Assembly (NCBI GenBank): GCA_039588935.1 | Contig: JBDGYW010000001.1 | Coordinates: 13,659 to 77,658, forward strand | Length of the DNA: 64,000 nt | From: Gemmatimonadota bacterium | GTDB lineage: Bacteria; Gemmatimonadota; Gemmatimonadetes; Gemmatimonadales; GWC2-71-9 | Direction of reading: 5' to 3' | Part shown: piece after piece, positions 39,818 to 54,362 of the stretch | How positions within the stretch are numbered: the first letter of the stretch is position 1 | Layout: each line of letters starts with the position of its first letter | Position numbers and translations under genes: made by a program | Notes under the pieces: generated by a model | Databases searched by the model: none | What the model was told of the DNA's origin: nothing | The model's input: the letters and a program-made list of their open reading frames with translations, nothing else

Positions 39818-40504
39818 TCAACCCCTTTCGAGTCGAAACAGGCGCTTCACGATAGGTTTCGCGACCTTCTCATCGACCCGTTCCATCAGGATCTCCGTCT
39901 GTAGATCCATCGCTACGTCGCTCGGACTCCCCTGGTAGGGATCTCGCTTCCCGGAGGCGACGTCCCTGGCGTACTTGAGCATGCCGATCCCGATTCGGAT
40001 GGGGAAGCTGGCATCGACGAGCGTTGCGCTTCCGTCATCGCCGATGATGTAGGAGTCCGTCTTGAACTCGGGCATCTTCCAGCCGGCCTTCTCCATGGCC
40101 GGCGCCATCTCTTCATAGTGAAGCTCCTGAAGGCGCTTTGTGTCCGCCCAGCCGCCTGGCCGGCCGACTGGACAGGTTCTGACGATGACGAGCTCGTCGA
40201 GGTCCAGTTCAACCGGCTCGGAGACCGGAAGGCCGATGCTGAAGGCTTCCTCAAGCCACTCGAACTCGCGCTGGAACGTACCGCGGCTGTGGTCGTCCTG
40301 GTAGTGAGCGACCTTGTAGGCCAGCGATTGCGCGTCGCAAAACACGCTGCCGGTCATACCGCTGCCGACCCACTCCAGCGGCGGCTCGGCGCCTACATTG
40401 AGCGCACGCTGAACCTCATCCTGGAGGCGGTCGGTGCCGACGTGGTACCTGACGTCCTTTGGGATCTCGTCCCAGTTCTCGACGATGTCGAGGACCGTCG
40501 TCAT
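39818..40504 (-). CDS. Protein-kinase-like fold protein (tentative, 228 aa)
   Basis: ORF track. Gly-rich loop VGSGMTGSVF followed by AYKV (Lys). Later LVDASF is DFG-like. No clear HRD loop, so the call is weak. Confidence 0.45.
   Translation of the reverse strand: MTTVLDIVENWDEIPKDVRYHVGTDRLQDEVQRALNVGAEPPLEWVGSGMTGSVFCDAQSLAYKVAHYQDDHSRGTFQREFEWLEEAFSIGLPVSEPVELDLDELVIVRTCPVGRPGGWADTKRLQELHYEEMAPAMEKAGWKMPEFKTDSYIIGDDGSATLVDASFPIRIGIGMLKYARDVASGKRDPYQGSPSDVAMDLQTEILMERVDEKVAKPIVKRLFRLERG
40328..40340. repeat. 13-bp dyad copy TTGCGCGTCGCAA
   Basis: Inside CDS 39818..40504. Confidence 0.5.
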
Positions 40505-40896
40505 CAGCAGCGGCGCGGTTTCGGTGCTCCGAAGTCCTGGCCGAAGCAGGAGACCACCAGCGAGGTCTTTGGCAGAGCGAAGCCCATGCCGGCCCAGACG
40601 GCCGCCCAGAAGATGGACCGGTTGCGCTTGTAGCCGTGGTAGAGCATCGCGAGCGCCGTGAGGCGGCGCCCGAGCGGAGAGGTGAAGAACGCAATCAGCT
40701 CCTCACCCTCGTAGCCGAGACCGTCGAGGTCGCCGACCTTCATGAGCGTGTCCACGCCGCGCACCGGCTGCGGCTCGTACTCGAGGTCGAGGCCCAGGCC
40801 GGGCAAGTCCGCTCCGTACTCCTGCTCTGCCATGCGCTTCCAGGTCTCCCCGGAGTAGATGTTCATCTGCTGTGGTTTGGTGAGCATGCCTGCCAT
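40504..40896 (-). CDS. Hypothetical protein (130 aa) with a C-terminal hydrophobic segment
   Basis: ORF track. 1-nt overlap with the downstream gene. Confidence 0.65.
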   Translation of the reverse strand: MAGMLTKPQQMNIYSGETWKRMAEQEYGADLPGLGLDLEYEPQPVRGVDTLMKVGDLDGLGYEGEELIAFFTSPLGRRLTALAMLYHGYKRNRSIFWAAVWAGMGFALPKTSLVVSCFGQDFGAPKPRRC

Positions 40897-40911
40897 CGTA
40901 TCCTCCCAGGC

Positions 40912-41316
40912 TCAGCGGGAGCGCTTCTTGCGCTTGAGGCTCTTCTTGCCGGCCCTCTTCTCCATCGGCGTTCCGCGAGTCACTCTGATATTCTTGACCC
41001 CGCGCCCCTTGAACATCTTGCGAAGTTCCTCCGCCCTCTTCTTGCTGTAGACAATCCATCCCTTCCTATTGCCGTACGGCGTCGTGTAGGTGATGGACCA
41101 GGCCTGGCTTCTGCTTGTCTTCGCAGGAGCGGTCTTTTTTCGGCCAGGGTTTTTCCGCTTCTTCTTGCCGGTCAGCTTGATGGCCAGGAGGCCAATACCG
41201 ACAAGAACGACCATCGGGAGCCAGCCCTTCAGCTTCTCGCCGATGCTGACTGCGCCGGTTGGCAGCGGTGCGGTGAGTTCGGTGCCGCGGTAGGATCCTG
41301 TGCTGTGGTAACTCAT
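40912..41316 (-). CDS. Single-pass membrane protein with a K/R-rich C-domain (134 aa)
   Basis: ORF track 40912..41442 trimmed to ATG 41316 behind GGAGAAGCGCACC. TM segment WLPMVVLVGIGLLAI followed by KLTGKKKRKNPGRKK. Confidence 0.6.
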   Translation of the reverse strand: MSYHSTGSYRGTELTAPLPTGAVSIGEKLKGWLPMVVLVGIGLLAIKLTGKKKRKNPGRKKTAPAKTSRSQAWSITYTTPYGNRKGWIVYSKKRAEELRKMFKGRGVKNIRVTRGTPMEKRAGKKSLKRKKRSR

Positions 41317-41384
41317 GGTGCGCTTCTCCGAAAAGGCTTGGGGTCGATAGCTGGTCTTGGGTGGGAGCTCCGTGAAGTACGGAC

Positions 41385-41397
41385 TTGCGGGTCGCAA
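41385..41397. promoter_or_regulatory. 13-bp dyad copy TTGCGGGTCGCAA
   Basis: In the 122-nt spacer upstream of ATG 41316 (it would be coding only if the long form of the ORF were real). Confidence 0.55.
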
Positions 41398-41438
41398 CCT
41401 CGTCGCGTCCCAGGCGTAGCCCGCGTAGTGTCGACGCC

Positions 41439-41654
41439 TCACTTCTTCCGCCTCCGTCTGCGGAAGCCGAGGTACTCCTTGAAGCCGAAGAAGGTAAAGA
41501 GCGGGATGGCGACGGTCGCCACCTGGGCGGCCGTCTTCCAGAACGTGCTCTTCGAGGCCTCGTATTCCGCCAGGTCTACTTCGCGCTTCCGCAGTGCGAT
41601 GTACTCACTGCGGAATTCGTCCTCGGAGAGACCCTGTGCTATGTACCCCATCAT
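41439..41654 (-). CDS. C-terminally anchored small membrane protein (71 aa)
   Basis: ORF track. N-terminus MMGYIAQG. TM segment AAQVATVAIPLFTFFGF followed by RRRRRKK. Confidence 0.6.
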   Translation of the reverse strand: MMGYIAQGLSEDEFRSEYIALRKREVDLAEYEASKSTFWKTAAQVATVAIPLFTFFGFKEYLGFRRRRRKK

Positions 41655-41671
41655 GCCCCATCGGCTGGCGG

Positions 41672-42037
41672 CTAGACGTCAATCATCTGGTTCCGCTCGA
41701 CCCTGACATGGAGGCCGCAGCCATCCCAGGTGCAGCGGAATTCCTCGATGTTGATCTCGCCGCCGGTTCGGTCATTGCGCTGAAAGCGGATGGCCTTCAT
41801 CTTGTCGGTGATCCGCAGTGCATTGCTGCAGCGCGGACAGTAGAGGTGGAGAAACAGCTCCCCATCGGCGGCGTAGACATCTGGAGTGGTGATCCGGTCG
41901 CCGTAGCGGATGCGCGGATGGCCGATCGCCGTCTTCGTGAGGTCGACTTCGGCCGACACGCCCCTGGCTCCGCTGCCGGCAGGATCCGGAACGTCACCCT
42001 TGATCTCGTAAAGGTCTTCTGGTCGTGAATTGGTCAT
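41672..42037 (-). CDS. Hypothetical zinc-ribbon protein (121 aa)
   Basis: ORF track. CPRC...CTWDGC. Confidence 0.65.
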   Translation of the reverse strand: MTNSRPEDLYEIKGDVPDPAGSGARGVSAEVDLTKTAIGHPRIRYGDRITTPDVYAADGELFLHLYCPRCSNALRITDKMKAIRFQRNDRTGGEINIEEFRCTWDGCGLHVRVERNQMIDV

Positions 42038-42046
42038 GCGACCAGT

Positions 42047-42361
42047 CTACTTCTTTTTCTTGCCCTTGAGCACGACGGCGATGATGACGAGGCCGCCGCC
42101 GATGACGATGTAGGGCAGGTACTTCTCGACTGCCGAGGGAGGCCGGTAGGCGACGCCAGGCTGCTGGCCCTTCTGCGCCAGGCCGGCGCCGTAGGCTTTC
42201 GCGCCGCCCGTCAGAACGTCCTTGATGAAGCCGAAGACACCACTGTCTGTCTTCGGGGCCGGCGTAGCGGTTGCCGCTGGCTTCTTCTCTTCCGGCTTGG
42301 GCAGGTACTCATCCCAAAAGGCGCCGAGGCCATTGGTCGGGGTTCCGGTGAAGTAGGGCAT
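42047..42361 (-). CDS. C-terminally anchored membrane protein (104 aa)
   Basis: ORF track 42047..42637 trimmed to ATG 42361 behind AGGAGAACCC. TM segment YIVIGGGLVIIAVVL followed by KGKKKK. Confidence 0.65.
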   Translation of the reverse strand: MPYFTGTPTNGLGAFWDEYLPKPEEKKPAATATPAPKTDSGVFGFIKDVLTGGAKAYGAGLAQKGQQPGVAYRPPSAVEKYLPYIVIGGGLVIIAVVLKGKKKK

Positions 42362-42369
42362 GGGTTCTC

Positions 42370-42948
42370 CTATTTTGCTGCGGGCTTCTTGCGCCGCTTC
42401 TTCCAGATGATGAGCCCGGCCAGGGCAGCAGCACCCAGGCCTCCGAGAATGAGTAGTTTTCTGCGCTTGCGACTCGCAACTAGGGCTTGCTCCTGGGCGA
42501 TCTGCGCCTGTTCGGCCGCGCTGGCCTGGGCGGCGAGCTCCGCGATGACCTTGTCGATCTCGGAAAACGGGATCCCCTGCTTTCGACCGTCGATGCAGAC
42601 CTCGAGCGACTGGCCCGTGTAGCCTCGGTCGGCGCACAGCTTGGCGATGGCGAAGTCGTCGTAGGGCCTACCCGCTCCCACCCAGGAGATGCACTCCTTC
42701 CAGGCCTCCCCGCGGAAGGCGGAGCACTTCTTCCGCTCAGCGTCCGCAGGCGTCTCCCTAACGGTCACAGCGCCGTTGACCGGCCCGCACGGATTCTGCC
42801 CGTCAGCCCGCTTCCGGGCGCAGTAGCCTGCCTTACCGGCGGCTGGCGGGCACCAGACCTTGCCGGCCCCACAGAGTGTCGCGGCGATGCGCTCTGGGGT
42901 CATCACCGTGAATCCGGCTTTCGTTGCGCCTGTTCCCACGTATCCCAT
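42370..42948 (-). CDS. Cys-rich, C-terminally anchored membrane protein (192 aa)
   Basis: ORF track 42370..43128 trimmed to ATG 42948. N-terminus MGYVGTGA. 10 Cys. TM segment LLILGGLGAAALAGLIIW followed by KKRRKK. Confidence 0.7.
   Translation of the reverse strand: MGYVGTGATKAGFTVMTPERIAATLCGAGKVWCPPAAGKAGYCARKRADGQNPCGPVNGAVTVRETPADAERKKCSAFRGEAWKECISWVGAGRPYDDFAIAKLCADRGYTGQSLEVCIDGRKQGIPFSEIDKVIAELAAQASAAEQAQIAQEQALVASRKRRKLLILGGLGAAALAGLIIWKKRRKKPAAK
42467..42479. repeat. 13-bp dyad, perfect palindrome TTGCGACTCGCAA
   Basis: Inside CDS 42370..42948 (coding strand GTT GCG AGT CGC AAG). Confidence 0.75.
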
Positions 42949-42950
42949 GA

Positions 42951-43538
42951 CTAGCTCCCCCAGATGGCGTAGGCCGCGGCGAGGGCCGCTGCGCCAATAA
43001 GCGCTATAGTGCCAACCCCCGTTTTCTTCTTCGGCGGTGCGGCCGGCTCGATTTCCGCCTCGTCGAGAAGCTCGTCGACGATCTCCTGCGGTGATTTTGC
43101 CCCGGCCCAGCTCTCGTCGGTCCACCACTGGCTGGCTCCCGCGCCTGATGGGTCGATGACCGGCTGCGGCGGAGGGGCCACGGGCGGAGGAGGCGGAGGG
43201 GAAGGCGCGGTCGTGAACCGCGGAGGCTGGCTGATTATCCTTGGCTCCTTGGTAACGAGCGGCTCCTTCGTCGGCCGGATCGGCGCCGCCTCGAGGACGG
43301 TGATTCCACCCTTGTCCCTGGACACCTCGGGCGAGGGGAAGAGCGTTCTCGTACCAGTCGGGAGCGGGGGGGGCTTCTCCAGCACGAGGGCGCCACCTCC
43401 ATAGATGGGTCGAGTGACCCTGGTCGGGGAGACGATCCTCGGGCTCTTCTTGACGACACGCCCAGTGAGTTCCGTTTCCTGCGCACCGGTCCCGAAGGTC
43501 CGCGACCGCGTGATAGCACCTGTTGCGACGTAGCCCAT
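42951..43538 (-). CDS. Pro-rich, C-terminally anchored membrane protein (195 aa)
   Basis: ORF track. N-terminus MGYVATGA. SPPPPPPVAPPPQP linker. TM segment VGTIALIGAAALAAAYAIW. Confidence 0.7.
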   Translation of the reverse strand: MGYVATGAITRSRTFGTGAQETELTGRVVKKSPRIVSPTRVTRPIYGGGALVLEKPPPLPTGTRTLFPSPEVSRDKGGITVLEAAPIRPTKEPLVTKEPRIISQPPRFTTAPSPPPPPPVAPPPQPVIDPSGAGASQWWTDESWAGAKSPQEIVDELLDEAEIEPAAPPKKKTGVGTIALIGAAALAAAYAIWGS

Positions 43539-43546
43539 GTCGGCTC

Positions 43547-44176
43547 CTAGGATTCGAGTTTCTTGGCTACCTTCTTGAGCAGCGGTGGTCCGAGGATGAA
43601 GACAGCGACAGCGACAGCGCCCCAGATGAGGAGCTTCTTCACGCCGCTACCAACGACATCAGTCGCCAGCGCGATTCCGCCGGCAATGTTCTCCGGCAGC
43701 TCCGCGACGGACTCGATGATCGCTTCGCGCGCCATCGTCCACTTCCCCTGGACCATGCCGGCAGCATTGCGAGCCATCGCGTATCGATTCGCAGTCTCCC
43801 AGAACTCCGTGTTCCAGGGATACTCTTCGTTCATCGCAGACTTGGCCGCGAGCAGCGCCGGTGCGGTCATTGGGTTTTGCCGCCAGAGCTTCACGAACGG
43901 CAGTTGAGACTCGAAAGCCATCCGCGCCGATTTATAGGAGTGGGTCTCGACAAACTTCTTTGGACAGTCGAGATTCCTGTCGAGCTGCATCTCACGAACG
44001 TTGCACGCGAGAGATGCGTAGTTCGAGGTCTGCGCAAGAAAGGCAGCTCCAAACATGTAGACATCCCGCCAGGTCGTCTTCGGGATCGCCTTCCCGCGTG
44101 GGCCGCGCGTGCCGCCGCGCAGTCCGACGTAGCGACGCTTCTCACGGAGGAAGACATCTAGTGCGTTGAAGGCCAT
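43547..44176 (-). CDS. C-terminally anchored membrane protein (209 aa)
   Basis: ORF track. TM segment LLIWGAVAVAVFILGPPLL followed by KKVAKK. Confidence 0.7.
   Translation of the reverse strand: MAFNALDVFLREKRRYVGLRGGTRGPRGKAIPKTTWRDVYMFGAAFLAQTSNYASLACNVREMQLDRNLDCPKKFVETHSYKSARMAFESQLPFVKLWRQNPMTAPALLAAKSAMNEEYPWNTEFWETANRYAMARNAAGMVQGKWTMAREAIIESVAELPENIAGGIALATDVVGSGVKKLLIWGAVAVAVFILGPPLLKKVAKKLES
43904..43916. repeat. 13-bp dyad copy TTGAGACTCGAAA
   Basis: Inside CDS 43547..44176. Confidence 0.55.
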
Positions 44177-44194
44177 CGCGATCCCCTTCCGGCG

Positions 44195-44812
44195 CTAGCG
44201 CGCCATCCTCCTGGCGAGAAAGAGCCCGATTGTGCCGGCGATGCCGATATTGCGGAGCTTCGGCTTGTTCGTGAACCAGCCGAAGGCCATGAGGGCCATG
44301 GCGCCGAAGTTGGCGATGTCGATAGCATCGACCGTCGAAACACCCTGCACGGCGAATAGCTCGCCACGCTCCGTCCACGCGCGGGTGTCGCGGCCCTTGT
44401 GGCTGGGGCGTCCGACACGCTCGACACCCTTGTCGATGATGCAGTTCGTGCCGAAGATGCGCCGGCCGTTCATCTCGATCTCGCAGAGGCCGGTCTCGGC
44501 GCCCTCGGGAACCACGACGGACGCCATGGTCGGGCCCATCATCTGCGGGTAGAGCCAACTCGTGCCCTGGAACTTGACGCGGACCTGGCCCTGGCCGAAG
44601 CCACCGAACGGCCCGGTCACGTTAACCACGTCCCCAACCCGCGTGTGCGTTGGGAAGATGCCGCCAGGCGTGGTCGGGCCCGGGGCGCCGGGGTGGGGCG
44701 CGATCGGACCGGGTAGGCCTCCAGGGAAGCCCGGCCAGCCGCCGGGCAGATTGAACTGGCCCAGCTCGGTGAGGAGACCACGTTCGCCGCGGCCGGTTTG
44801 CTTGTAGCTCAT
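44195..44812 (-). CDS. Gly/Pro-rich protein with an IPT/TIG-like beta domain and a C-terminal anchor (205 aa)
   Basis: ORF track 44195..44920 trimmed to ATG 44812 behind GGAGGAAAGCGGC (ATGA overlap). GDVVNVTGPFGGFGQGQVRVKFQG...VVVPEGAETGLCEIEMNG. Confidence 0.65.
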   Translation of the reverse strand: MSYKQTGRGERGLLTELGQFNLPGGWPGFPGGLPGPIAPHPGAPGPTTPGGIFPTHTRVGDVVNVTGPFGGFGQGQVRVKFQGTSWLYPQMMGPTMASVVVPEGAETGLCEIEMNGRRIFGTNCIIDKGVERVGRPSHKGRDTRAWTERGELFAVQGVSTVDAIDIANFGAMALMAFGWFTNKPKLRNIGIAGTIGLFLARRMAR

Positions 44813-45162
44813 GCCGCTTTCCTCCGCTTGCCGGCCTTGTAGCCGACGAGAAAGGTCAAGCCCAGAACCCCGGCAACGACGGTCGGCAGGAGCCATGGGT
44901 GCTGGCGCTGGTAGATCCAAATCTTGAGTGGCGTCACGGCGAACCGAAGGCCGATTCCCCTCTTGACAGCCGCGGTGCTCAGACCCACCGTAGTTCTACA
45001 CGGAGCCCCGGGTGCCTGGCCGCGCTCGACCTTTGCGAGTCGCAACACCTCGCAGGTGAACTGCGGGAGATAGGGATCGTCCAGGACGTTCTTGCCGACC
45101 TCCAGTGCCGAGGCTACCTTGCCCCAATCTGCTCCGAGTGCTTGACGTTTCCTGTAACTCAC
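44809..45162 (-). CDS. C-terminally anchored membrane protein (117 aa)
   Basis: ORF track 44809..45243 trimmed to GTG 45162 behind AGGGGGG. TM segment LLPTVVAGVLGLTFLVGY followed by KAGKRRK. Confidence 0.55.
   Translation of the reverse strand: MSYRKRQALGADWGKVASALEVGKNVLDDPYLPQFTCEVLRLAKVERGQAPGAPCRTTVGLSTAAVKRGIGLRFAVTPLKIWIYQRQHPWLLPTVVAGVLGLTFLVGYKAGKRRKAA
45033..45045. repeat. 13-bp dyad, perfect palindrome TTGCGAGTCGCAA
   Basis: Inside CDS 44809..45162. Confidence 0.75.
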
Positions 45163-45369
45163 AATGGACCCCCCTGAGTCGCCCGCTGGCCTGCCTCGCG
45201 AGGCTTGTCGGTCGGACTCTCCGGTTGTTTCCGACCGCGGCAATCACGCCGTGAGCTGGCGGAAAGGAGTAAGCGCCAGCTGGGACTCGTTTGGTTGGCT
45301 CTGCAGACCATGGGTTTTGATGCCCCCCTCATGACTAGGCCAGCGGGCCACGCAGAGGGGTCCGTTGTG

Positions 45370-45522
45370 TCAGTCGCCCTTGAGCGCGCTCCAGATGAGG
45401 ATGCCGACCGCTGCGTAGATCCCAAGCTTCATGATATTGGAGAAGTCGGGGACCGCCGCGAGCGGTGCTGGTTTCCTCTTCGGTGCGTAGAGAGACGCAC
45501 CGCTGCAACCCGCGCAGGGCAT
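45370..45522 (-). CDS. Small membrane peptide (50 aa)
   Basis: Not in the ORF track. ATG 45522 lies 2 nt after the upstream stop. My translation is MPCAGCSGASLYAPKRKPAPLAAVPDFSNIMKLGIYAAVGILIWSALKGD. Confidence 0.4.
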   Translation of the reverse strand: MPCAGCSGASLYAPKRKPAPLAAVPDFSNIMKLGIYAAVGILIWSALKGD

Positions 45523-45524
45523 CG

Positions 45525-48603: not shown

Positions 48604-48681
48604 GCCAGGTCGGGTGTCGTCCCGCCTTGGGTTGATGGCGTGAGGGAGTCGAAAGGGAGGAGTCAGGAGGGAAACGCGAGC

Positions 48682-50211
48682 CTAGAAGCCGCCCGCGAAG
48701 ATTCCGGTGTAGAGGTTGGCCATCTTGTCGTAGCCGGGGCCGACCTTCGGCACCTGGCGCACGAAGCTGCGAGAGGGCACCGGGGCGACCATCGCGCGAC
48801 GCGGGACGGCCTTGAGCATGGCGGGGTTCTGCGTGCCGATGCCGGTGCCGATGTTGGAGCCGCCGAGCGCTTCCTCGAAGCCCTCGCCCATCTCCTCCAT
48901 CATGCCGAGCTCCTCTTCGGCGCCCATGTCGATGTACTCGCCCATCTCCTCCTCGTAGCCGCCGACATCGATGTACTCGCCGACGTCCACGTACTCGCCC
49001 ATGGCCGAGTCGTAGATGCCCTCGTCACCGGACAGACCGATGGTGCCGAGCCAGTTCGCCGGCACGTACGAGGTGAGGACGATCTCGATGAAGTTCAGGC
49101 CGAGGCCCATGAGGACTTCCTGCCGGTACTTCCGCAGGAGTGCCACCTTCTTGGTGGCGAAGCTGCCCGCGAGCAGCATCAGGCCGGCGCCGGCCGGCGC
49201 CGCGTGCTGGCCGAGGCTCGAGAGTCCGGGGACCATCGGGAGGACTTTGCGAGCCACAACCCGGCCACCGTACATCGCCGCGGCGACGGGGATCGCCTTC
49301 TTGACGGCATCGACGACGCCACCCTGGACGTTCGCGCGCATCTTGTAGCGGCGCATGAAGGCCTTGGAGCCGGAGCTGCCGTGAGCCTTCTGGAACTTGA
49401 TGGTCTTGCGAGCGCGCTTCACGCTCTTGGAGACGCGGCGCTTGCCCTTCCACTTCCGGCTCTTGAACTTCCGCTTCAGGCTCTTGCGATGGGCCTTGCG
49501 GGTGCGACGCCAGGACTTGATCGCCTTGGTTCCGCCTTTCCGCTTTCGCTTGCGCCATCCCTTGAGGGCCGCACGCCGACGAGCGGCCTTGGTCGTCTTG
49601 CTCTTCTTCTTGGCCACAGTCTTCCTCCTGGTGGTCTTGGCGGCGGTCTTCCTCTTGGTTGTCTTCCGCCTGGTCGTGGTGGTCTTGCGGGCCCGCTTCT
49701 TCGCGGTGGCTTTCCGCTTCCGGGTCGCGGCGGCCTTCTTGGCGGCGGCGCTCCGCTTGCGAGCCTTCGTGGCCCGGGTCGCGGCGGCCTTCTTGGCGGC
49801 GCGCTTCCGCATGGCGGAGATGGCGCGCGGCGTCTTGGCCTTCTTGGCGGTCTTCCGCTTCTTGGCCGGCTTCCGCTTCTTGCCTCCCCAAGTCGCGCCC
49901 TTCGTGATGCGCGGCTTGTACTTGGCCTTCATCTTCACGCCGACCGGGTTTTTGCGACGAGCCTTCGCGAGACTCTTGAGCCGGGCCTTGCGAGCAGCGC
50001 CGTGCAGCTTGCTCAGCGGGGTCTTCCGCTTGGCCACTTTTCGTTTGGCCTTGGGCATTCGCTTCCCTCCTGGGTTCTTGACAGACTGAGGAACTCCCGG
50101 CGGTCGACCTTTCCTAACGGGCTTGCGTCGGCCCGAGGCAGCCTTCTGCTTCGGGATGTACCGTTTCGTCGATCGTCGCGTAGTTCGCGGGTTGACGTAG
50201 AAAAGGGGCAT
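48682..50211 (-). CDS. Hyper-basic protein (509 aa): ~300-aa K/R/A/T low-complexity region, hydrophobic core, acidic tract, C-terminal TGIFAGGF
   Basis: ORF track. Repeated KKAA.TRK.K motifs. The C-terminal ~200 aa are paralogous to 18105..18767. Confidence 0.75.
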   Translation of the reverse strand: MPLFYVNPRTTRRSTKRYIPKQKAASGRRKPVRKGRPPGVPQSVKNPGGKRMPKAKRKVAKRKTPLSKLHGAARKARLKSLAKARRKNPVGVKMKAKYKPRITKGATWGGKKRKPAKKRKTAKKAKTPRAISAMRKRAAKKAAATRATKARKRSAAAKKAAATRKRKATAKKRARKTTTTRRKTTKRKTAAKTTRRKTVAKKKSKTTKAARRRAALKGWRKRKRKGGTKAIKSWRRTRKAHRKSLKRKFKSRKWKGKRRVSKSVKRARKTIKFQKAHGSSGSKAFMRRYKMRANVQGGVVDAVKKAIPVAAAMYGGRVVARKVLPMVPGLSSLGQHAAPAGAGLMLLAGSFATKKVALLRKYRQEVLMGLGLNFIEIVLTSYVPANWLGTIGLSGDEGIYDSAMGEYVDVGEYIDVGGYEEEMGEYIDMGAEEELGMMEEMGEGFEEALGGSNIGTGIGTQNPAMLKAVPRRAMVAPVPSRSFVRQVPKVGPGYDKMANLYTGIFAGGF

Positions 50212-50327: not shown

Positions 50328-50340
50328 TTGCGACTCTCAA
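50328..50340. promoter_or_regulatory. 13-bp dyad copy (minus-strand reading TTGAGAGTCGCAA)
   Basis: In the 177-nt spacer upstream of 48682..50211. On the minus strand a TTGACA hexamer (50303-50298) follows about 24 nt downstream. Confidence 0.65.
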
Positions 50341-50388
50341 CAGGGCCAGCGTGTAGGCCCCGGAGTGAAACACCAGTGCTAGCGGTTT

Positions 50389-50850
50389 TCAGCGTCCGCG
50401 GCGCCGCAAAAGAAGGTCGAGTTTTTCAGTGTTGGTCTGCTGCGACTGTTTGATCAGGCCCTGTTCGGTCCTCACATCCTTTATAAGGCCCTTCTGCTCG
50501 CCGATCTCACCGCGCAGTTCACTGATATCCCGGCGCGTCGTCTCATGACCGTTTTTGTCGTGTTGGATCATCACGTCGCGGAGCTGCGAGGTGGTCGGCC
50601 TGTCCGCGAGCATGCTCGAGAGCGCCCACAGCGCGCCTGACAGAATCACGAAGGCACCGAAGGTGATCGACACGACCCGCAAGATCGATGGCGGCTTCGG
50701 TGTGGTCTTATGCTCCACTTCCGTGATCCTGGCGTCCTGCTTGGAGAAGACCTCGCTGCCGTTCTCAAGCCGGACTCGGTGCTCCACTGCGGCGTCTCGT
50801 AGTTTTCTAACTGCGAGCTGCAAACCAGCCACGTCTTCCTGTAGTCCCAT
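50389..50850 (-). CDS. Coiled-coil single-pass membrane protein (153 aa)
   Basis: ORF track. N-terminus MGLQEDV. TM segment ILRVVSITFGAFVILSGALWALSSML. Confidence 0.7.
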   Translation of the reverse strand: MGLQEDVAGLQLAVRKLRDAAVEHRVRLENGSEVFSKQDARITEVEHKTTPKPPSILRVVSITFGAFVILSGALWALSSMLADRPTTSQLRDVMIQHDKNGHETTRRDISELRGEIGEQKGLIKDVRTEQGLIKQSQQTNTEKLDLLLRRRGR

Positions 50851-50856
50851 TGACGA

Positions 50857-51345
50857 TCATCCCACGAGGCCCTGCGGTTTCCAATCGAGTTCTCCACCCC
50901 AGATGATCGCTACGAGTTTCCGGCGGTTGCGAATGAGCAAGAGGGCCTTCCCCTGTGGGTGCCAGTACCACTTGCAGCCTGCCGCCGTCGCGTCAACGAG
51001 CTCCCCGTCTCCCCCCCGATACCCAAATCCGAGAGCCTTCTTATTCAGACCCACCAGCGTCGTGTTGTCGCAGATTCGTTTCGGAACCCGACGCTTGCGA
51101 GAGGTTTTCTGACCTACCAGCCCAACAACGACGCGCGGAAAGGACTCGATGTCATGCACGTAGTCGTGCGTGCCGTCCTTCCACTTGTCGCTGCGGTAGG
51201 TCACATAGACACAGGGCCCTGCGTAGTAGACAGAAGTAGGGATCGCGACGCTCGACGGGAGGCGTTTGGCGTCCTTCACGTCGTAGGCGTGGAAGTCCTC
51301 GAACAGCCTAATAGCCCTGCGAAAGCCTGGCGGGCAGCTGGGCAT
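50857..51345 (-). CDS. Hypothetical protein (162 aa)
   Basis: ORF track. YVTYRSDKWKDGTHDYVHD motif. No family assigned. Confidence 0.7.
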   Translation of the reverse strand: MPSCPPGFRRAIRLFEDFHAYDVKDAKRLPSSVAIPTSVYYAGPCVYVTYRSDKWKDGTHDYVHDIESFPRVVVGLVGQKTSRKRRVPKRICDNTTLVGLNKKALGFGYRGGDGELVDATAAGCKWYWHPQGKALLLIRNRRKLVAIIWGGELDWKPQGLVG

Positions 51346-51678
51346 CTACTTCTTGGCTTCCTCGCTGAACACGTACTTCCAGAGGAGGTAGCCGGCGATC
51401 CCGAGCATAAGCAATTCCTTGTTGCTGATGTCGAGGGTGATTCCCGCGAGCGGATTGCCGCTCTTGCGAGTCGCAATCGAGCCCCTTGGATAGAGTCCTT
51501 TTCCGATCAAGACAGCCCCCATGGGTAGCGGTTGTGCGGCGTCGTCGGGCGCAACGCCCAGTTTTCCTCCGCCGCGGATCTTCGGTTTCTTGGCGAACAC
51601 TCCGTCGCGCAGCTCTCCAGAGGCGCGATAGTAATCGTAGCCCTTGCCATTCCAAACGGAGTAGTCGGCCATGATCAT
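51346..51678 (-). CDS. C-terminally anchored membrane protein (110 aa)
   Basis: Tail of track ORF 51346..52449. ATG 51678 (ATGA overlap). TM segment LLMLGIAGYLLWKYVF. Confidence 0.65.
   Translation of the reverse strand: MIMADYSVWNGKGYDYYRASGELRDGVFAKKPKIRGGGKLGVAPDDAAQPLPMGAVLIGKGLYPRGSIATRKSGNPLAGITLDISNKELLMLGIAGYLLWKYVFSEEAKK
51464..51476. repeat. 13-bp dyad, perfect palindrome TTGCGAGTCGCAA
   Basis: Inside CDS 51346..51678 (coding strand ATT GCG ACT CGC AAG). Confidence 0.75.
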
Positions 51679-51908
51679 CTCCCGCCGATCGCGTCGACGA
51701 CGGTTCGGTCGAAGAAGGTCTTCCCGCGCTTGTCCTTGCGGATGAAGACCAGGTAGGCGCCGATCCCGAGGAACGCGAGCGGCAGCACCGACCCTGCGAG
51801 CTTCGCATCCCCGAACTGCATCATCGGCGGCTTCGTCGATGGCATTGGGTAGCCCTTCCAGTTGTACTCGTATTGGTAGGGCTGGGCTCCGTATCTGTAG
51901 TAGCGCAT
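51675..51908 (-). CDS. Tyr-rich single-pass membrane protein (77 aa)
   Basis: ORF track. MRYYRYGAQPYQYEYNWKGY. TM segment LAGSVLPLAFLGIGAYLVFI. Confidence 0.65.
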   Translation of the reverse strand: MRYYRYGAQPYQYEYNWKGYPMPSTKPPMMQFGDAKLAGSVLPLAFLGIGAYLVFIRKDKRGKTFFDRTVVDAIGGR

Positions 51909-51917
51909 CGCGCCCTC

Positions 51918-52823
51918 CTAGAAGATGCCCTTGAGGAGCTTGGGTGGCTTGAGCTTCTTGCCCTTCTTCTTGGACTCGTAGTAGTAGAGACCACCGACGA
52001 CCGCCAGGCCGATGCCGACCAGGGCGAGGTTGCTCTGCTGCACGCGCTGGAGCAGCGGCAAACCCGCGACGATCTGATCGCGGGGCGGGTTCACGACACC
52101 GCCGGTGCCAGACGGGGGCGCCTTCGGCGGAGGCGACGGGACCTTGGTCGCGACGTTGAGCTGGTTGGCCTGACTGTGGAGTTTCTCCATCGCGAGGTCG
52201 GCCGTCAGTGCCAAACCATCGACATCGGAGAAGGTCGGCGCGGGGATCTTTGCCAGGCACTTGTTCACGAGCGACAGCGTACCGGACCCGAGGCGCCCAT
52301 CCACCGCGATGCGAGACCAACCATAGGAGCTGGCAACCCGATTGGCCTGATTCTGCACGGCCTTGAAGAGGTTCGCGGTCTCGATCGTCATCGGCAGAAC
52401 GATGCCGCGAATCGGTTTGCAGTTGCCCTGCGGGTTCTTCGTGCTGCACCAGTTGGGCTGCAAGACGAGGCCCATCGAAGAGTAGCCCATGCCCATTGCT
52501 CCAGTCGGCGACGCGGAGTGGTTGCCTCGGTACAGCACGTCGCCATAGAGCTGCAGCCAGGTTTTGGATTTCCAGTTCGGACCGCTGAGTTCCCGCATCG
52601 CAGCGGCAGTGGCCTTGTCTACGAAACCGTCCTGGCGGTTTGGGTAGCCAAGCGTCGCCAGCTTGTGCTGAAGCGTCTCCACGATCATGATCGTCACCGG
52701 ATTGTAGACGTCCGTGGTGGCAGCCATCAGCCAGAGCTGCGGGACGGCCATCCCGGCATTCACGCGATCCATCCCCATTTCCATGGCGACGGTCACGGCA
52801 TCGTAGGTGTCATAGTCGGACAT
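51918..52823 (-). CDS. Membrane-anchored protein with two peptidoglycan-binding-like repeats (301 aa)
   Basis: ORF track 51918..52850 trimmed to ATG 52823 behind AAGGAG. LQHKLATLGYPNRQDGFVDKATAAAMREL resembles PG_binding_1. C-terminal TM segment ALVGIGLAVVGGLYYY followed by KKKGKK. Confidence 0.65.
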   Translation of the reverse strand: MSDYDTYDAVTVAMEMGMDRVNAGMAVPQLWLMAATTDVYNPVTIMIVETLQHKLATLGYPNRQDGFVDKATAAAMRELSGPNWKSKTWLQLYGDVLYRGNHSASPTGAMGMGYSSMGLVLQPNWCSTKNPQGNCKPIRGIVLPMTIETANLFKAVQNQANRVASSYGWSRIAVDGRLGSGTLSLVNKCLAKIPAPTFSDVDGLALTADLAMEKLHSQANQLNVATKVPSPPPKAPPSGTGGVVNPPRDQIVAGLPLLQRVQQSNLALVGIGLAVVGGLYYYESKKKGKKLKPPKLLKGIF

Positions 52824-52833
52824 CGATTGCTCC

Positions 52834-53823
52834 TTACTTGAGAGCCACAACCGCGATCAGGAGGACCGCTCCGCCTGCCACCAGGACTGGAACGAGCGGG
52901 AAGGGTTTCGCCGGGGCGGCATAGGCAGCACCGGGCTGGTCCGCACAGGCCGACGCGACCAGGTTTGCACCCTTCTGGCCAACCTCCGGCGGTGCGCCGG
53001 CTGCCGCGGCACCTCCGGAAGCAGCGAGCTGGCCCACCCTCGAGCCAGCGACATTGCAGGCCAGGCTACCGATCGAGCTGATGACCCCCTTGCCCCATTC
53101 GGCGGCCTTCATACCGGCAGGCGCCGCGGTCGCGGTCGCCTTGCTTACGCCCTTCGCAACCCAGGACAGCGGGTTGTACCAGGCGCCGAGTGCGCCCTGC
53201 ATGCCCTCCAGGACGACGATCTCGGAGGCCTCCCCGTAGGCGGCCAGGCCGAGCATCGACTTGACCTCGACACGGCCGGTCTGGCCGGCCCGGATGAACT
53301 CCTCAAGAAGGCCCATCGAGGTACTCGCGGCGATCGCCTGGTGGAGCGCGTGCTTCGGCGGCAAACCTTGTCGCTCGAACTTCCTACCCTGTGCGGCGAC
53401 GCGGCCCCAGAGCTTCGGATCGAGCTGATCGAAGACTGCCTTGAGGGCTGGCTTTCGCTCCTCGACTGGAAGCTGCCGGATGCTCGACATGATGCGGCTG
53501 GCCACCTGCTGTCCAAAGTTGGCGATCGGGTCCTTGCCCTGAACTGCGCCGGGCTCGTCGTCGCCCAGATACTTCGGGACCAGGACGTCGATGGATTTCC
53601 GCGGGTAGTACTTCGTGCGGTGAACCCCACGCCCGATCGGCTCCTGGCCAACGTAGTTCGGATAGGCGTAGCCCGGCTGCCACGGTGTCGGGATCGCTGG
53701 GTTGTCGATGCTCTTGCGACGCCGATACTTCGTGGTCGCCGTGCCGCGGCCAGGTGGCTCTGCCATCACATAGTCGGGAATAGCGTACTGCCCATCCCAC
53801 GGGTGCGGTTTGCGAAAGAACAT
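52834..53823 (-). CDS. C-terminally anchored protein with an N-terminal duplicated 28-aa motif (329 aa)
   Basis: ORF track. YAIPDYVMAEPPGRGTATTKYRRRKSID / YAYPNYVGQEPIGRGVHRTKYYPRKSID. TM segment LVPVLVAGGAVLLIAVVAL. Confidence 0.7.
   Translation of the reverse strand: MFFRKPHPWDGQYAIPDYVMAEPPGRGTATTKYRRRKSIDNPAIPTPWQPGYAYPNYVGQEPIGRGVHRTKYYPRKSIDVLVPKYLGDDEPGAVQGKDPIANFGQQVASRIMSSIRQLPVEERKPALKAVFDQLDPKLWGRVAAQGRKFERQGLPPKHALHQAIAASTSMGLLEEFIRAGQTGRVEVKSMLGLAAYGEASEIVVLEGMQGALGAWYNPLSWVAKGVSKATATAAPAGMKAAEWGKGVISSIGSLACNVAGSRVGQLAASGGAAAAGAPPEVGQKGANLVASACADQPGAAYAAPAKPFPLVPVLVAGGAVLLIAVVALK
52838..52850. promoter_or_regulatory. 13-bp dyad copy TTGAGAGCCACAA
   Basis: In the last codons of 52834..53823. 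On the minus strand it reads TTGTGGCTCTCAA-GT-AAGGAG, directly upstream of the RBS of 51918..52823. Confidence 0.6.
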
Positions 53824-53831
53824 GGATCCTC

Positions 53832-54362
53832 CTAGGCGACCGGCCAGACTTTGGCGGCCACGACGCGGCTGAGCATACGCTTGGTTCGACTGGCGGCGAC
53901 TGGATCGAGCGCGATCCAGCGATTGGTTTGTGGCTCTAAAGCCTCGGTGAAGACGTGCGAGAACTGGCGCTGCCCATGATGGAACATGTGCCGAAACGCA
54001 ACGGTGACGATTCGCGCCCGGCCGCCCCCCATGAGCACCATGGCCGTGAGCAGCGCGCAGGAATCATCGCAGTCGAGGGACGGCTTCTTGCCACTCACAA
54101 GTTCGCGAGCGACCACGTAGGGAGCCCTGACGAGCTCGACGGTCCTGGGGTCCCGCATGTAGCGGGTGTTGCCCAGGACGAAGTAGTAGTAGGCGAGGTA
54201 CTCGTCGAGGTAGGCCTTTCCCGGCAGACCCGCGACGATCTGCTCGAGGAAGAGACGCAGGTTATAGTCACGCTGCGAGGAGAGCGCAGCGTCGATGATC
54301 ACGCCGACTGTCTGTGGAGCACCGCGGTACGGAAACTTCAGTACTCGATCGTGGCCTCGCAA
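53832..54362 (-). CDS. Transglutaminase-like cysteine peptidase fold protein (176 aa)
   Basis: ORF track. Cys-His-Asp arrangement SLDCDDSCALLTAMV ... FSHVFTEA ... IALDP, as in the transglutaminase core. Confidence 0.65.
   Translation of the reverse strand: MRGHDRVLKFPYRGAPQTVGVIIDAALSSQRDYNLRLFLEQIVAGLPGKAYLDEYLAYYYFVLGNTRYMRDPRTVELVRAPYVVARELVSGKKPSLDCDDSCALLTAMVLMGGGRARIVTVAFRHMFHHGQRQFSHVFTEALEPQTNRWIALDPVAASRTKRMLSRVVAAKVWPVA
53928..53940. repeat. 13-bp dyad copy (minus-strand reading TTTAGAGCCACAA)
   Basis: Inside CDS 53832..54362. Confidence 0.6.

What the first reader, a model, noticed from the sequence alone, without database searches (positions are those of the whole stretch)
40504..54362. 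Virion-like module dominated by tail-anchored membrane proteins, with no recognisable tailed-phage head/tail hallmarks in the window
Between 40.5 and 54.4 kb at least 15 consecutive or near-consecutive gene products have one predicted TM helix. It is usually at the extreme C-terminus and followed by a K/R tail. The genes are 40912, 41439, 42047, 42370, 42951, 43547, 44195, 44809, 45370, 45525, 50389, 51346, 51675, 51918 and 52834.

Interleaved with them are:
- two small beta-rich proteins (193 aa at 47988-48569; 214 aa at 45796-46440)
- adhesin paralog D
- the hyper-basic protein
- a protein with PG-binding repeats
- a transglutaminase-like peptidase
- a long coiled-coil protein

Reading all called proteins in the 64 kb by eye, I found no Walker-A (GxxxxGK[ST]) motif, no terminase, no portal, no HK97-like capsid, no tape measure and no tail tube or sheath.

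There are two readings. (a) The canonical morphogenesis genes lie outside the window, and this block encodes envelope, lysis or superinfection functions. (b) The particle is of an internal-membrane type, with small vertical jelly-roll capsid proteins as in PRD1, PM2 or sphaerolipovirus-like viruses. Those viruses have small single-jelly-roll MCPs together with many small membrane proteins. If so, the genome here is several-fold larger than in those viruses. The second reading would be novel, but it is speculative.
Basis: inference. Interest (0 to 1): 0.8.

Follow-up and report, generated by a model that had tools for sequence, protein, structure and literature searches.

The report
Motor-less membrane virus capsid module
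This gene block most likely builds the particle of an undescribed family of ~80-kb bacterial viruses, with a small jelly-roll shell protein, many membrane-anchored proteins and an extremely basic DNA-binding protein, in a genome that encodes no recognisable DNA-packaging motor.

Summary
All 15 listed genes have an uncharged hydrophobic stretch of 15-30 aa. In 12 it lies near the C-terminus, and most are followed by a K/R tail. TM proteins are enriched in the block (8/22 genes against 4/105 outside, p = 8e-5).

I closed the genome using a 100%-identical contig: window plus 16.5 kb gives an 80,497-bp circle with 162 genes. It has no terminase, portal, HK97 or tail family, and no P-loop motif in any gene. 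Reading (a) is therefore refuted.

The 193-aa protein models confidently (pLDDT 87) as a jelly-roll. Its structural neighbours are viral single-jelly-roll capsid proteins (SPV1, SH1, circoviruses), but all matches are weak. It is the most conserved gene of a module found on 68-89-kb, circularly permuted metagenome contigs, and distant relatives sit on 94-171-kb contigs.

Three genes always travel together: a hyper-basic protein (net +85 to +188), the jelly-roll protein, and a ~214-aa protein.

The closest cultured virus is probably Salisaeta phage SSIP-1, on weak capsid-profile similarity plus a shared transglutaminase-like virion protein.

Reading (b) is supported in outline. However, the FtsK/HerA packaging ATPase that defines the PRD1 and sphaerolipovirus groups is absent. 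I infer motor-less assembly around condensed DNA, as in the archaeal virus SPV1. The fold of the 214-aa protein, the presence of lipid and the host remain untested.

The parts
47988..48569 (-). Putative major capsid protein, 193 aa, single jelly-roll with a basic N-terminal arm (MPRLHGVRERRHQ)
   Evidence: AF2 with a deep alignment gives pLDDT 86.8 and pTM 0.80. Foldseek neighbours are viral SJR capsid proteins, all weak. There are 767 homologs at 90% clustering and 487 clusters at 50%. It is 65-78% identical across 19 loci, the most conserved gene of the module. Longer relatives carry insertions at two loop positions.
48682..50211 (-). Hyper-basic protein (509 aa from the corrected start). 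The N-terminal ~270 aa carry net +95 to +121. The C-terminal domain is conserved, with hydrophobic segments and acidic E/G/Y repeats. Putative genome-condensing, membrane-associated core protein
   Evidence: The architecture is conserved in 13 orthologs. The gene sits immediately upstream of the capsid gene in all relatives, including distant ones, where it carries +47 to +188. No Pfam or meaningful PHROG family was found.
45796..46440 (-). Conserved 214-aa partner protein: N-terminal coiled coil of ~50 aa plus a ~160-aa C-terminal domain. Candidate second capsid or vertex protein; fold not determined
   Evidence: Present in 19 of 19 loci and directly downstream of the capsid gene in most. The pairing is kept at 41% capsid identity. 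It has 972 homologs, all hypothetical. No profile similarity to the 193-aa family, SSIP-1 gp45/gp46 or PDB.
53832..54362 (-). Transglutaminase-like cysteine peptidase, 176 aa with a TTG start and an invariant Cys/His/Asp triad
   Evidence: Transglut_core E 1e-3. The triad is invariant in 13 orthologs. BLASTP E 1.2e-7 to the SSIP-1 structural protein gp34.
51918..52823 (-). PG_binding_1-domain protein with a C-terminal TM helix and a K-rich tail
   Evidence: Conserved in 14 loci.
52834..53823 (-). 329-aa protein with an extreme C-terminal TM helix. Conserved, and 345-678 aa in relatives
50389..51908 (-). Four small genes: 51675-51908 (TM), 51346-51678 (conserved, C-terminal hydrophobic), 50857-51345 (conserved, soluble, 162 aa) and 50389-50850 (central TM)
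   Evidence: Homologs of 51346 and 50857 are present even in the 161-171-kb relatives.
40912..45749 (-). Run of bitopic membrane proteins (45525, 45370, 44809, 44195, 43547, 42951, 42370, 42047, 41439, 40912), plus the conserved Zn-ribbon protein 41672-42037
   Evidence: Hydropathy and K/R tails. 44809-45162 is conserved in 17 loci and 41672-42037 in 18.
54364..57011 (-). Head of the late operon: three strongly acidic proteins. These are a 568-aa coiled-coil protein (net -38), a 150-aa protein (net -19) and a 189-aa protein (net -23). Candidate scaffold, or chaperones for the polycation
   Evidence: Charges. The 568-aa protein is conserved in 12 loci. The operon starts here, opposite a divergent early operon, in relatives as well.
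46538..47893 (-). Adhesin-like paralog D, with two N-terminal discoidin-like repeats. Candidate spike or receptor-binding protein, inserted between the capsid gene and its partner in this genome
   Evidence: Weak F5_F8_type_C match. Paralogs lie at 18814-20076, 22136-23518 and 23576-24958, and one homolog is found 0.1-9 kb downstream of the capsid gene in 11 of the 19 related loci.
18814..24958 (+). Adhesin-like paralogs A-C, plus an unrelated 628-aa protein, converging on the late operon
37628..38815 (-). GT4 glycosyltransferase at the distal end of the same strand block. It recurs near the module in relatives
   Evidence: Pfam match. Homologs in L008, L013, L038 and L040.

Best explanation
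The block is the core of the late (virion) operon of a circular ~80.5-kb dsDNA virus of a peptidoglycan-bearing bacterium. The virus belongs to a large, uncultured and undescribed lineage.

Proposed parts and roles:
- The 193-aa single jelly-roll protein forms the icosahedral shell, probably together with the invariably linked ~214-aa protein.
- About 15 bitopic proteins, each with a TM helix followed by a K/R tail, populate a lipid layer under the shell. Their basic tails would face the DNA.
- The hyper-basic protein (about +115 in its N-terminal half, with a hydrophobic conserved C-terminal domain) neutralises the genome, condenses it and ties it to that membrane.
- The three acidic proteins at the head of the operon act as scaffold or as chaperones for the polycation.
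- The adhesin-like proteins are spikes.
- The transglutaminase-like peptidase, the PG-binding protein, SLT and the M23 peptidases act on the cell wall at entry or exit.

The complete genome has no P-loop NTPase of any kind. I therefore propose that DNA is not pumped into a preformed shell. Instead, membrane and shell would assemble around the condensed nucleoprotein, as proposed for the archaeal virus SPV1.

Shown: gene content, genome closure, the jelly-roll model, conservation and synteny, the charge and TM patterns, and the absence of P-loops. Inferred: capsid role, internal membrane, topology of the tails, and the motor-less mechanism.
For: Genome:
- Closure to 80,497 bp with 100%-identical overlaps. 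The NCBI contig carrying the same protein is 80,611 bp.
- Relatives lie on 68-89-kb contigs binned into seven unrelated lineages spanning at least five phyla (the window's own contig adds Planctomycetota) and on 75.6-86.4-kb IMG/VR contigs. The module wraps around contig ends.

Absence of known morphogenesis genes:
- No terminase, portal, HK97 or tail family.
- No Walker A in the window, the gap or any of the 162 genes.
- No conserved P-loop ORF within 10 kb either side of the capsid gene in 19 relatives, in 4 distant relatives, or up to 18 kb upstream in 9 relatives.

Capsid protein:
- Jelly-roll model with pLDDT 86.8.
- Top PDB neighbours are SJR capsid proteins. SPV1 6oj0_A has prob 0.97 and TM 0.42-0.45; SH1 6qt9_h has prob 0.82.
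- The top BFVD hit has E 1.8e-4 and TM 0.51.
- It is the most conserved module gene, and variants carry loop insertions.

Other evidence:
- The trio of basic protein, capsid protein and 214-aa protein is conserved down to 41% capsid identity in L038. Basic protein directly upstream of the capsid gene persists in relatives down to 26%, where a 214-aa homolog was detected only in L042.
- TM enrichment and K/R tails.
- SSIP-1 links: gp46 ranks first and gp45 second of 57 SSIP-1 proteins. The hhalign alignment is colinear over 151 columns. The TGase-like protein matches gp34 at E 1e-7. SSIP-1's virion module also has C-terminal-TM proteins.
- SPV1 and FLiP are precedents that lack a packaging ATPase (PMC8812541).
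- A Shine-Dalgarno core precedes 64% of genes against 13% expected. Together with the PG enzymes, this points to a bacterial host.
Against: - No structural match reaches E below 1e-3 in PDB, and TM-scores are at most 0.45. The jelly-roll fold is also used by lectins, C1q/TNF domains and enzymes, which appear in the same hit lists.
- Profile similarity to SSIP-1 gp46 is statistically weak (hhalign probability 2-3%, hmmsearch E 0.09 in a 57-protein set).
- I could not confirm my guess, from the shared 211-aa length, that the best BFVD hit (I1ZBH9) is SSIP-1 gp46.
- The 214-aa protein's fold is unknown.
- Only one genome of the family was seen whole, and one relative carries an SNF2-like helicase.
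- There is no particle, lipid or proteome evidence.
- Topology is a puzzle. A large N-terminal domain and a K/R tail lie on opposite sides of the bilayer. The PG-binding domain would need to reach the periplasm while the basic tail stays cytoplasmic.
- A motor-less route for 80-170 kb of dsDNA has no bacterial precedent.
Confidence: 0.6

Rival explanations
1. The particle type is as in the best explanation: a jelly-roll shell over an internal membrane. Packaging, however, is motor-driven as in PRD1, PM2 or sphaerolipoviruses. The ATPase would either have no recognisable Walker A motif or be borrowed from the host (for example FtsK).
For: All cultured bacterial viruses of this architecture with dsDNA genomes encode an FtsK/HerA-type ATPase (PMC8812541). 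SSIP-1 gp40 and gp41 carry Walker A motifs. Many module proteins have no assignable function.
Against: No GK[ST] occurs in a P-loop context in any of the 162 genes. No SSIP-1 gp40 homolog was found. No conserved P-loop ORF lies within 10 kb either side of the capsid gene in 23 relatives. The conserved polycationic protein adjacent to the capsid gene suggests condensation instead.
Confidence: 0.12
2. This is an enveloped or pleomorphic virus, in the manner of plasmaviruses or pleolipoviruses. The many membrane proteins sit in an external envelope acquired by budding. The jelly-roll protein is a nucleocapsid, matrix or spike component rather than an icosahedral shell.
For: Budding viruses need no packaging ATPase. 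K/R tails facing a nucleoprotein core, with N-terminal ectodomains outside, would satisfy the positive-inside rule and would put the PG-binding domain outside. A strongly basic core protein is present.
Against: The jelly-roll's neighbours are icosahedral shell proteins, and its extreme conservation with loop insertions is typical of a lattice protein. There are links to SSIP-1, an icosahedral T=49 virus. Known budding prokaryotic viruses have genomes of 7-16 kb (my knowledge). SLT and M23 enzymes suggest lysis.
Confidence: 0.12
3. This is not a virus. It is an ~80-kb plasmid or integrative element whose membrane-protein block builds a cell-envelope, adhesion or vesicle apparatus. The jelly-roll protein would be a lectin-like or pilin-like surface subunit.
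For: ParB, an integrase and a beta-clamp are plasmid-compatible. There is no packaging ATPase. Jelly-roll lectins, C1q-like domains and Ena fibre subunits appear among the weak fold hits.
Against: There is no relaxase, T4SS or other secretion ATPase, since the genome has no P-loop at all. The 193-aa protein has no signal peptide. Genome size is discrete and contigs are circularly permuted across many samples and bins. No hit was found in 72,556 plasmids. The repertoire is phage-type: cI/Cro-like HTH proteins, DUF5131, GP88, methylases, SLT and M23. IMG/VR lists the contigs as viral.
Confidence: 0.1
4. This is a tailed phage whose terminase, portal, HK97 and tail genes lie outside the window, and the block encodes envelope, lysis or superinfection functions.
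For: The window alone covers only 80% of the genome. A tRNA gene and an integrase sit at its edge.
Against: The remaining 16.5 kb was recovered and holds none of these genes. The whole genome has no Walker A. The block is the most conserved part of the genome family.
Confidence: 0.03

Closest known systems
[quoted passage not shown]
   Same: - Circular dsDNA genome, and a virion module rich in proteins with a C-terminal TM helix (gp34, ORF35, gp41, ORF50, ORF52).
- A transglutaminase-like virion protein: gp34 matches 53832-54362 at E 1.2e-7.
- Two adjacent ~210-aa structural proteins, gp45 and gp46, are the two best SSIP-1 matches to the 193-aa family profile. The alignment is colinear and shares an N-terminal PRLxG motif.
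- SSIP-1 is reported as membrane-containing, T=49, with two capsid protein types, probably single jelly-rolls (PMC6356626, PMC6260650, PMC4958249).
   Different: - The genome is 44 kb against 80.5 kb here, and up to 171 kb in relatives.
- SSIP-1 gp40 and gp41 have Walker A motifs. No counterpart exists here.
- SSIP-1 has no hyper-basic protein or adhesin homologs.
- No other significant protein matches were found apart from small HTH proteins.
- The capsid similarity is below statistical significance.
[quoted passage not shown]
   Same: - It has single jelly-roll capsid proteins, an internal lipid layer, and a circular dsDNA genome held as a nucleoprotein core (my knowledge of the SPV1 literature, not checked here).
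- It lacks a packaging ATPase (PMC8812541).
- Its capsid proteins are the highest-probability PDB neighbours of the 193-aa model: 6oj0_A prob 0.97 with TM 0.42-0.45, and 6oj0_Z prob 0.93.
   Different: - The host is archaeal and the genome is ~20 kb.
- There is no sequence similarity, and the fold match has E 0.009-0.04, which is not significant.
- No peptidoglycan enzymes are expected in an archaeal virus (my inference; SPV1's gene content was not examined here).
Helvetiavirae/Singelaviria (Sphaerolipoviridae, Simuloviridae, Matsushitaviridae: SH1, HHIV-2, SNJ1, P23-77, IN93)
   Same: They are tailless with an internal membrane and small vertical single jelly-roll capsid proteins encoded side by side. 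Their structural modules hold many small membrane proteins. An SH1 chain (6qt9_h) is among the fold neighbours (prob 0.82).
   Different: They have genomes of 16-31 kb and a defining FtsK/HerA packaging ATPase next to the capsid genes. The ATPase is absent here. No Pfam or PHROG hit was found to their proteins.
Prokaryotic double jelly-roll viruses (Tectiviridae PRD1, Corticoviridae PM2, Autolykiviridae, FLiP)
   Same: They have an internal membrane, many small membrane proteins and spike complexes. FLiP also lacks a packaging ATPase.
   Different: Their capsid protein is a double jelly-roll. Here it is a 193-aa single beta-sandwich. Their genomes are under 20 kb (PMC8812541). An ATPase is present in all of them except FLiP.

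Membership tests
Caudoviricetes (tailed phages) | Large terminase with a P-loop ATPase | tested here: not met
   No terminase family in Pfam or PHROGs over the window and the gap. No Walker A in any of the 162 genes of the closed genome.
Caudoviricetes (tailed phages) | Portal, HK97-fold capsid and tail genes | tested here: not met
   No such family by profile search. A fold-level check was done only for the 193-aa protein, which is a jelly-roll and not HK97.
Helvetiavirae/Singelaviria (sphaerolipovirus-like) | Single jelly-roll major capsid protein | tested here: inconclusive
   The jelly-roll model is confident. Similarity to SH1 and SPV1 capsid proteins is only weak (prob 0.82-0.97, TM 0.36-0.45, E above 1e-3). 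Vertical orientation in a lattice cannot be tested with these tools.
Helvetiavirae/Singelaviria (sphaerolipovirus-like) | Two different SJR capsid proteins encoded side by side | tested here: inconclusive
   A ~214-aa protein is always paired with the capsid gene. It has no profile similarity to the capsid family, and its fold was not predicted.
Helvetiavirae and prokaryotic Bamfordvirae (PRD1, PM2) | FtsK/HerA-superfamily genome-packaging ATPase in the structural module | tested here: not met
   No P-loop in the complete genome. None within 10 kb either side of the capsid gene in 23 relatives.
Prokaryotic Bamfordvirae (Tectiviridae, Corticoviridae, Autolykiviridae) | [quoted passage not shown] | tested here: not met
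   The 193-aa model is one beta-sandwich. Long relatives are single cores with loop insertions, not duplications.
Portogloboviridae (SPV1-like) | SJR capsid proteins, a nucleoprotein core and no packaging ATPase | tested here: inconclusive
   The absence of an ATPase is met. A candidate condensing protein is present. The capsid fold match is the best in PDB by probability but is not significant. The host is bacterial, not archaeal.
SSIP-1-like viruses (no formal taxon) | Homologous capsid proteins (gp45 and gp46) | tested here: inconclusive
   gp46 and gp45 rank 1st and 2nd of 57 SSIP-1 proteins by two methods, but with E 0.09 and hhalign probability 2-3%. gp46 has only one homolog in 5.8 billion proteins, so no deep profile could be built.
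SSIP-1-like viruses (no formal taxon) | Shared virion proteins beyond the capsid | tested here: met
   The TGase-like protein matches structural protein gp34 at E 1.2e-7. This rests on one domain only.
Any internal-membrane virus | Lipid bilayer under the capsid; sensitivity to chloroform or detergent | not testable with these tools
   Inferred only from the cluster of about 15 membrane proteins in the capsid operon.

The most novel reading that the evidence does not exclude
This would be a previously unrecognised, deep-branching lineage of bacterial viruses, at family level or higher, possibly sister to SSIP-1. Its genomes span 80-170 kb. The particle is a single jelly-roll shell over an internal membrane, and it encapsidates dsDNA without any packaging motor, by assembling around a genome condensed by a virus-encoded polycation of +85 to +188 charge. 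It would be the largest known prokaryotic jelly-roll viruses and the first bacterial dsDNA example of motor-less, nucleoprotein-based encapsidation.
Probability: 0.35. Interest if true: 0.9.

Novelty: new variant of a known kind. Interest (0 to 1): 0.8.

Why it matters
- Prokaryotic jelly-roll, internal-membrane viruses are thought to be small. DJR phages are under 20 kb, helvetiaviruses 16-31 kb and SSIP-1 44 kb. Except for two small outliers (the ssDNA phage FLiP and the 20-kb archaeal virus SPV1), they are thought to depend on an FtsK/HerA packaging ATPase (PMC8812541).
- This family has hundreds of sequence clusters in public metagenomes, with complete ~80-kb circles and relatives on contigs up to 171 kb. 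It would break both rules at once.
- It offers a testable model for how a large dsDNA genome can be encapsidated without a motor.
- It gives the orphan phage SSIP-1 its first plausible relatives.
- It bears on the debate about the origin of jelly-roll capsids, specifically the idea of a portoglobovirus-like ancestral state lacking an ATPase.
- Practically, it shows that ~80-kb contigs of this kind are being binned into MAGs of at least six unrelated phyla, and that hallmark-gene-based phage annotation finds no head, tail or packaging gene in them.

Tried and rejected
- First AF2 run with 36 close homologs: pLDDT 63. The fold hits were uninformative. It was superseded by the run with remote homologs.
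- INPHARED phages and PLSDB plasmids by tblastn with the capsid protein: no match.
- GTDB genomes with single-sequence patterns: no relative. The alignment-based scan worked.
- Walking from the far end of L005 with the 332-aa protein: nothing in viral or metagenome contigs. This was solved instead by looking up window gene 2471-3643.
- Exact look-ups of window 3-527 and 1387-2181 failed. Window 3-527 is the truncated integrase. For 1387-2181 the recorded gene call is shorter.
- Alignments A6 and A3 were too divergent for pattern scans.
- hhalign of the 214-aa family against the capsid family, SSIP-1 gp45 and gp46, and a PDB sequence search: nothing.
- PDB sequence search with the capsid profile: nothing.
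- The SSIP-1 primary paper is not held.
- The identity of BFVD entry I1ZBH9 could not be established, because SSIP-1 proteins carry only UniParc ids.
- Contexts of very remote capsid homologs were on contigs too short to help.
- Four literature searches found no description of this family.
- I considered a eukaryotic host because of the tRNA-Val(AAC). I rejected it because of strong Shine-Dalgarno usage and the peptidoglycan enzymes.
- I considered a haloarchaeal host because of the weak HVO/DUF75xx Pfam hits. I rejected it because the proteome is not acidic and PG enzymes are present.

Full report
**Observation**

The window has about 62% GC, so raw ORF lists are noisy. I trained a codon model on long ORFs and called 127 genes. 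Genes run on the + strand for 1-25.4 kb, on the - strand for 25.4-57.0 kb, and on the + strand again from 57.9 kb.

Hydropathy confirms the membrane-protein cluster.
- With a strict rule, 8 of 22 genes at 40.9-53.9 kb have a TM helix against 4 of 105 elsewhere (p = 7.6e-5).
- All 15 listed genes have an uncharged stretch of 15-30 aa. Twelve have it within 25 aa of the C-terminus, and about ten are followed at once by a K/R tail.
- No called gene in the window has a Walker A motif.
- Pfam and PHROG scans of all 123 proteins of 50 aa or more find only HTH regulators, methylases, DUF5131, GP88, a GT4 glycosyltransferase, an integrase, a helicase loader, PG_binding_1 and Transglut_core. There is no terminase, portal, capsid or tail family.

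**Closing the genome**

Exact look-ups of window proteins returned a 40,275-bp Logan contig that is 100% identical to the window. It leaves the right end of the window, runs through 16,497 new bases, and re-enters at window position 1. Window plus gap makes an 80,497-bp circle. The NCBI contig that carries the identical 193-aa protein, labelled a Planctomycetota MAG, is 80,611 bp.

The gap encodes GP88, a beta sliding clamp, a C5 methylase, ParB, two J-domain proteins, an SLT lytic transglycosylase, two M23 peptidases, a dual-specificity phosphatase and the tyrosine integrase, which the window start cuts. No frame of the gap has a Walker A. Among the 162 genes of the circle, no GK[ST] sits in a P-loop context. 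Reading (a) is therefore refuted for this genome.

**The 193-aa protein**

- It has 767 homologs at 90% clustering, all hypothetical. The top 120 are more than 72% identical.
- A profile search of 1.84 billion representatives finds 487 clusters at 50% identity.
- It has no match in Pfam, PHROGs, PDB sequences, 50,697 phage records or 72,556 plasmids.
- With a shallow alignment AF2 was poor. With 41 sequences reaching 23% identity the model is confident: pLDDT 86.8, pTM 0.80, a beta-sandwich with two short helices.
- Foldseek against PDB gives nothing below E = 1e-3, but viral single jelly-roll capsid proteins dominate the list. These include circoviruses, a betanodavirus, SPV1 (6oj0_A, prob 0.97, TM 0.42-0.45; 6oj0_Z, prob 0.93) and an SH1 chain (prob 0.82). 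They are mixed with cellular jelly-rolls such as PHM, BcsB and C1q.
- Against BFVD the top hit is a 211-aa entry with E 1.8e-4, prob 1.0 and TM 0.51.
- Longer family members are the same single core with insertions at two fixed positions, or with N-terminal extensions. That is how lattice jelly-rolls usually acquire surface towers.
- I conclude that the fold is a jelly-roll. Its capsid role is an inference from context and conservation.

**Family and synteny**

- Pattern scans found the gene on seven MAG contigs, six of them 68-89 kb, assigned to Gemmatimonadota, Thermomicrobiales, Kiloniellales, Galbitalea, Peribacteria, Myxococcales and Deltaproteobacteria. It is also on nine IMG/VR contigs of 75.6-86.4 kb.
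- The scatter across phyla, together with the uniform size, indicates a free replicon that binning places arbitrarily.
- In two IMG/VR contigs the module wraps around the contig ends, so the assemblies are circularly permuted.
- Across 19 loci the conserved core, in order, is: the 568-aa acidic coiled-coil protein, the TGase-like peptidase, the 329-aa TM protein, the PG-binding TM protein, the 110-aa and 162-aa proteins, the hyper-basic protein, the 193-aa protein (65-78% identity, the best conserved), the 214-aa protein (42-54%), the 117-aa TM protein, the 121-aa Zn-ribbon protein and an adhesin-like protein.
- In most relatives the 214-aa gene follows the capsid gene directly. In this genome, adhesin paralog D has been inserted between them.
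- The trio of basic protein, capsid protein and 214-aa protein persists at 41% capsid identity.
- More distant relatives lie on 94-, 104-, 161- and 171-kb IMG/VR contigs. They keep the same order, the C-terminal-TM proteins, and a basic protein of 538-924 aa with net +47 to +188.
- None of these 23 loci has a conserved P-loop ORF within 10 kb either side of the capsid gene. In nine relatives the 10 kb upstream of the TGase gene is a divergent operon of small genes. The only P-loop there is one SNF2-like helicase.

**The hyper-basic protein**

Orthologs share the N-terminus MPxFxVNP, so the true start is 50211 and the protein is 509 aa. In 13 orthologs the first ~270 residues carry net +74 to +121 (+94 or more in 12 of them), with little sequence conservation. 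The last ~190 residues are conserved. They contain hydrophobic segments, an acidic E/G/Y/M repeat and a terminal LYTGIFxGGF motif. This reads as a DNA-neutralising arm joined to a domain that binds membrane or capsid.

**Link to SSIP-1**

SSIP-1 is a 43.8-kb circular, membrane-containing, T=49 phage, reported to have two capsid protein types, probably single jelly-rolls.
- The window's TGase-like protein matches SSIP-1 structural protein gp34 at E 1.2e-7.
- SSIP-1's structural module has the same C-terminal-TM pattern.
- The 193-aa family profile ranks the adjacent structural proteins gp46 and gp45 first and second of 57 SSIP-1 proteins, by both hmmsearch and hhalign.
- The alignment is colinear over 151 columns and shares an N-terminal PRLxG motif.
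- The statistics are weak. gp46 has only one homolog in 5.8 billion proteins. I could not confirm my guess, from the shared 211-aa length, that the top BFVD entry is gp46.
- SSIP-1 gp40 and gp41 have Walker A motifs. Nothing similar exists here.

**Mechanism**

The module looks like that of an internal-membrane jelly-roll virus, but it lacks the ATPase that defines the PRD1, PM2 and sphaerolipovirus groups. The published precedents without a packaging ATPase are FLiP and SPV1 (PMC8812541). SPV1, as I recall the literature, wraps its circular dsDNA into a nucleoprotein core under a lipid layer and an SJR shell. It also provides the highest-probability PDB neighbours of the model.

I therefore propose co-assembly of membrane and shell around DNA condensed by the polycation. 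The K/R tails of the bitopic proteins would line the DNA side of the membrane. The acidic operon-head proteins would serve as scaffold or chaperones. The adhesin-like proteins would be spikes. The peptidoglycan-active proteins would work at entry and exit.

The topology of large N-terminal domains relative to K/R tails remains unresolved, particularly for the PG-binding protein. That problem keeps an external-envelope model alive.

**Host**

A Shine-Dalgarno core precedes 64% of genes against 13% expected (my start-codon choice slightly favours such sites). PG_binding_1, SLT and M23 enzymes are encoded. Both point to a bacterium with peptidoglycan. The phylum is unknown, and the MAG labels are unreliable.

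**Novelty**

No Pfam, PHROG, INPHARED or PLSDB match was found for the core proteins. Four full-text literature searches found no description of the family. I cannot exclude a description in papers not held in the library.

I rate the finding as a new variant of a known kind (tailless, membrane-containing jelly-roll viruses). There is a substantial chance that it is a deeper novelty in both genome size and packaging mode.

Noticed in passing
window 1053-1128 (+): A complete tRNA (Rfam 58.8 bits) with the anticodon AAC (Val), which is unusual for bacteria. It lies between the tyrosine integrase, which is cut by the window start, and the first early genes. It may be a virus-borne tRNA, or an attP-associated copy of a host tRNA-Val gene with an altered anticodon.
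   Followed up: partly
window 18814-20076, 22136-23518, 23576-24958 (+) and 46538-47893 (-): Four adhesin-like paralogs with weak discoidin (F5/8 type C) matches. The N-terminal domain is internally duplicated in paralog D. Eleven of the 19 related loci show one homolog, 0.1-9 kb downstream of the capsid gene. This genome may therefore have expanded its receptor-binding repertoire.
   Followed up: partly
L042 6178-8952 and L043 6210-8975 (IMG/VR contigs of 171 and 161.5 kb): Distant relatives on much larger contigs have a basic protein of 921-924 aa with net charge +187 and +188, against +85 to +124 in most of the ~80-kb genomes. This hints that polycation charge scales with genome size. The 104-kb relative (+47) does not fit.
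   Followed up: partly
cluster of window 47988-48569: A member of the window capsid protein's 90%-identity cluster appears in a eukaryotic transcriptome assembly (GHVR01158881). Presumably the virus or its host contaminated that sample, and the gene was transcribed.
   Followed up: no
P0100 and P0105 (capsid homologs), residues 53-90: A weak, sub-threshold Pfam match to DUF7592 (E 1e-5, 25.7 bits against a cut-off of 27) over the most conserved strand region of the jelly-roll. I do not know what DUF7592 proteins are. This could be a lead to further relatives.
   Followed up: no
gap region: L005 1430-2560, 6503-7096; L025 1554-2075, 5383-5838: The genome encodes its own beta sliding clamp, two J-domain-like proteins and a dual-specificity phosphatase. 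It encodes no polymerase, primase or helicase with a P-loop, so replication apparently relies on host enzymes.
   Followed up: partly
L032 3-2537 (-), IMGVR_UViG_3300013306_000002: One relative carries an 845-aa SNF2-like helicase (ILCGEMGTGKT) in the variable early region. The lack of any P-loop is therefore not universal in the family, although it holds for the structural modules.
   Followed up: no
window 37628-38815 (-), with homologs in L008, L013, L038 and L040: A GT4 glycosyltransferase recurs close to the structural module in several relatives, and L038 has two glycosyltransferases. This may mean glycosylation of virion proteins or lipids.
   Followed up: no
window 40912-41442 (-): This 176-aa protein has a central TM helix followed by an 88-aa tail with 33 K/R and 3 D/E. 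It is a second strongly basic, membrane-anchored protein in the block, besides the 509-aa one.
   Followed up: no
Complete ~70-89-kb genomes of this family have been deposited inside MAGs of eight unrelated lineages spanning at least six phyla, Planctomycetota and a CPR lineage among them. This is a binning artefact that affects public genome collections.
   Followed up: partly
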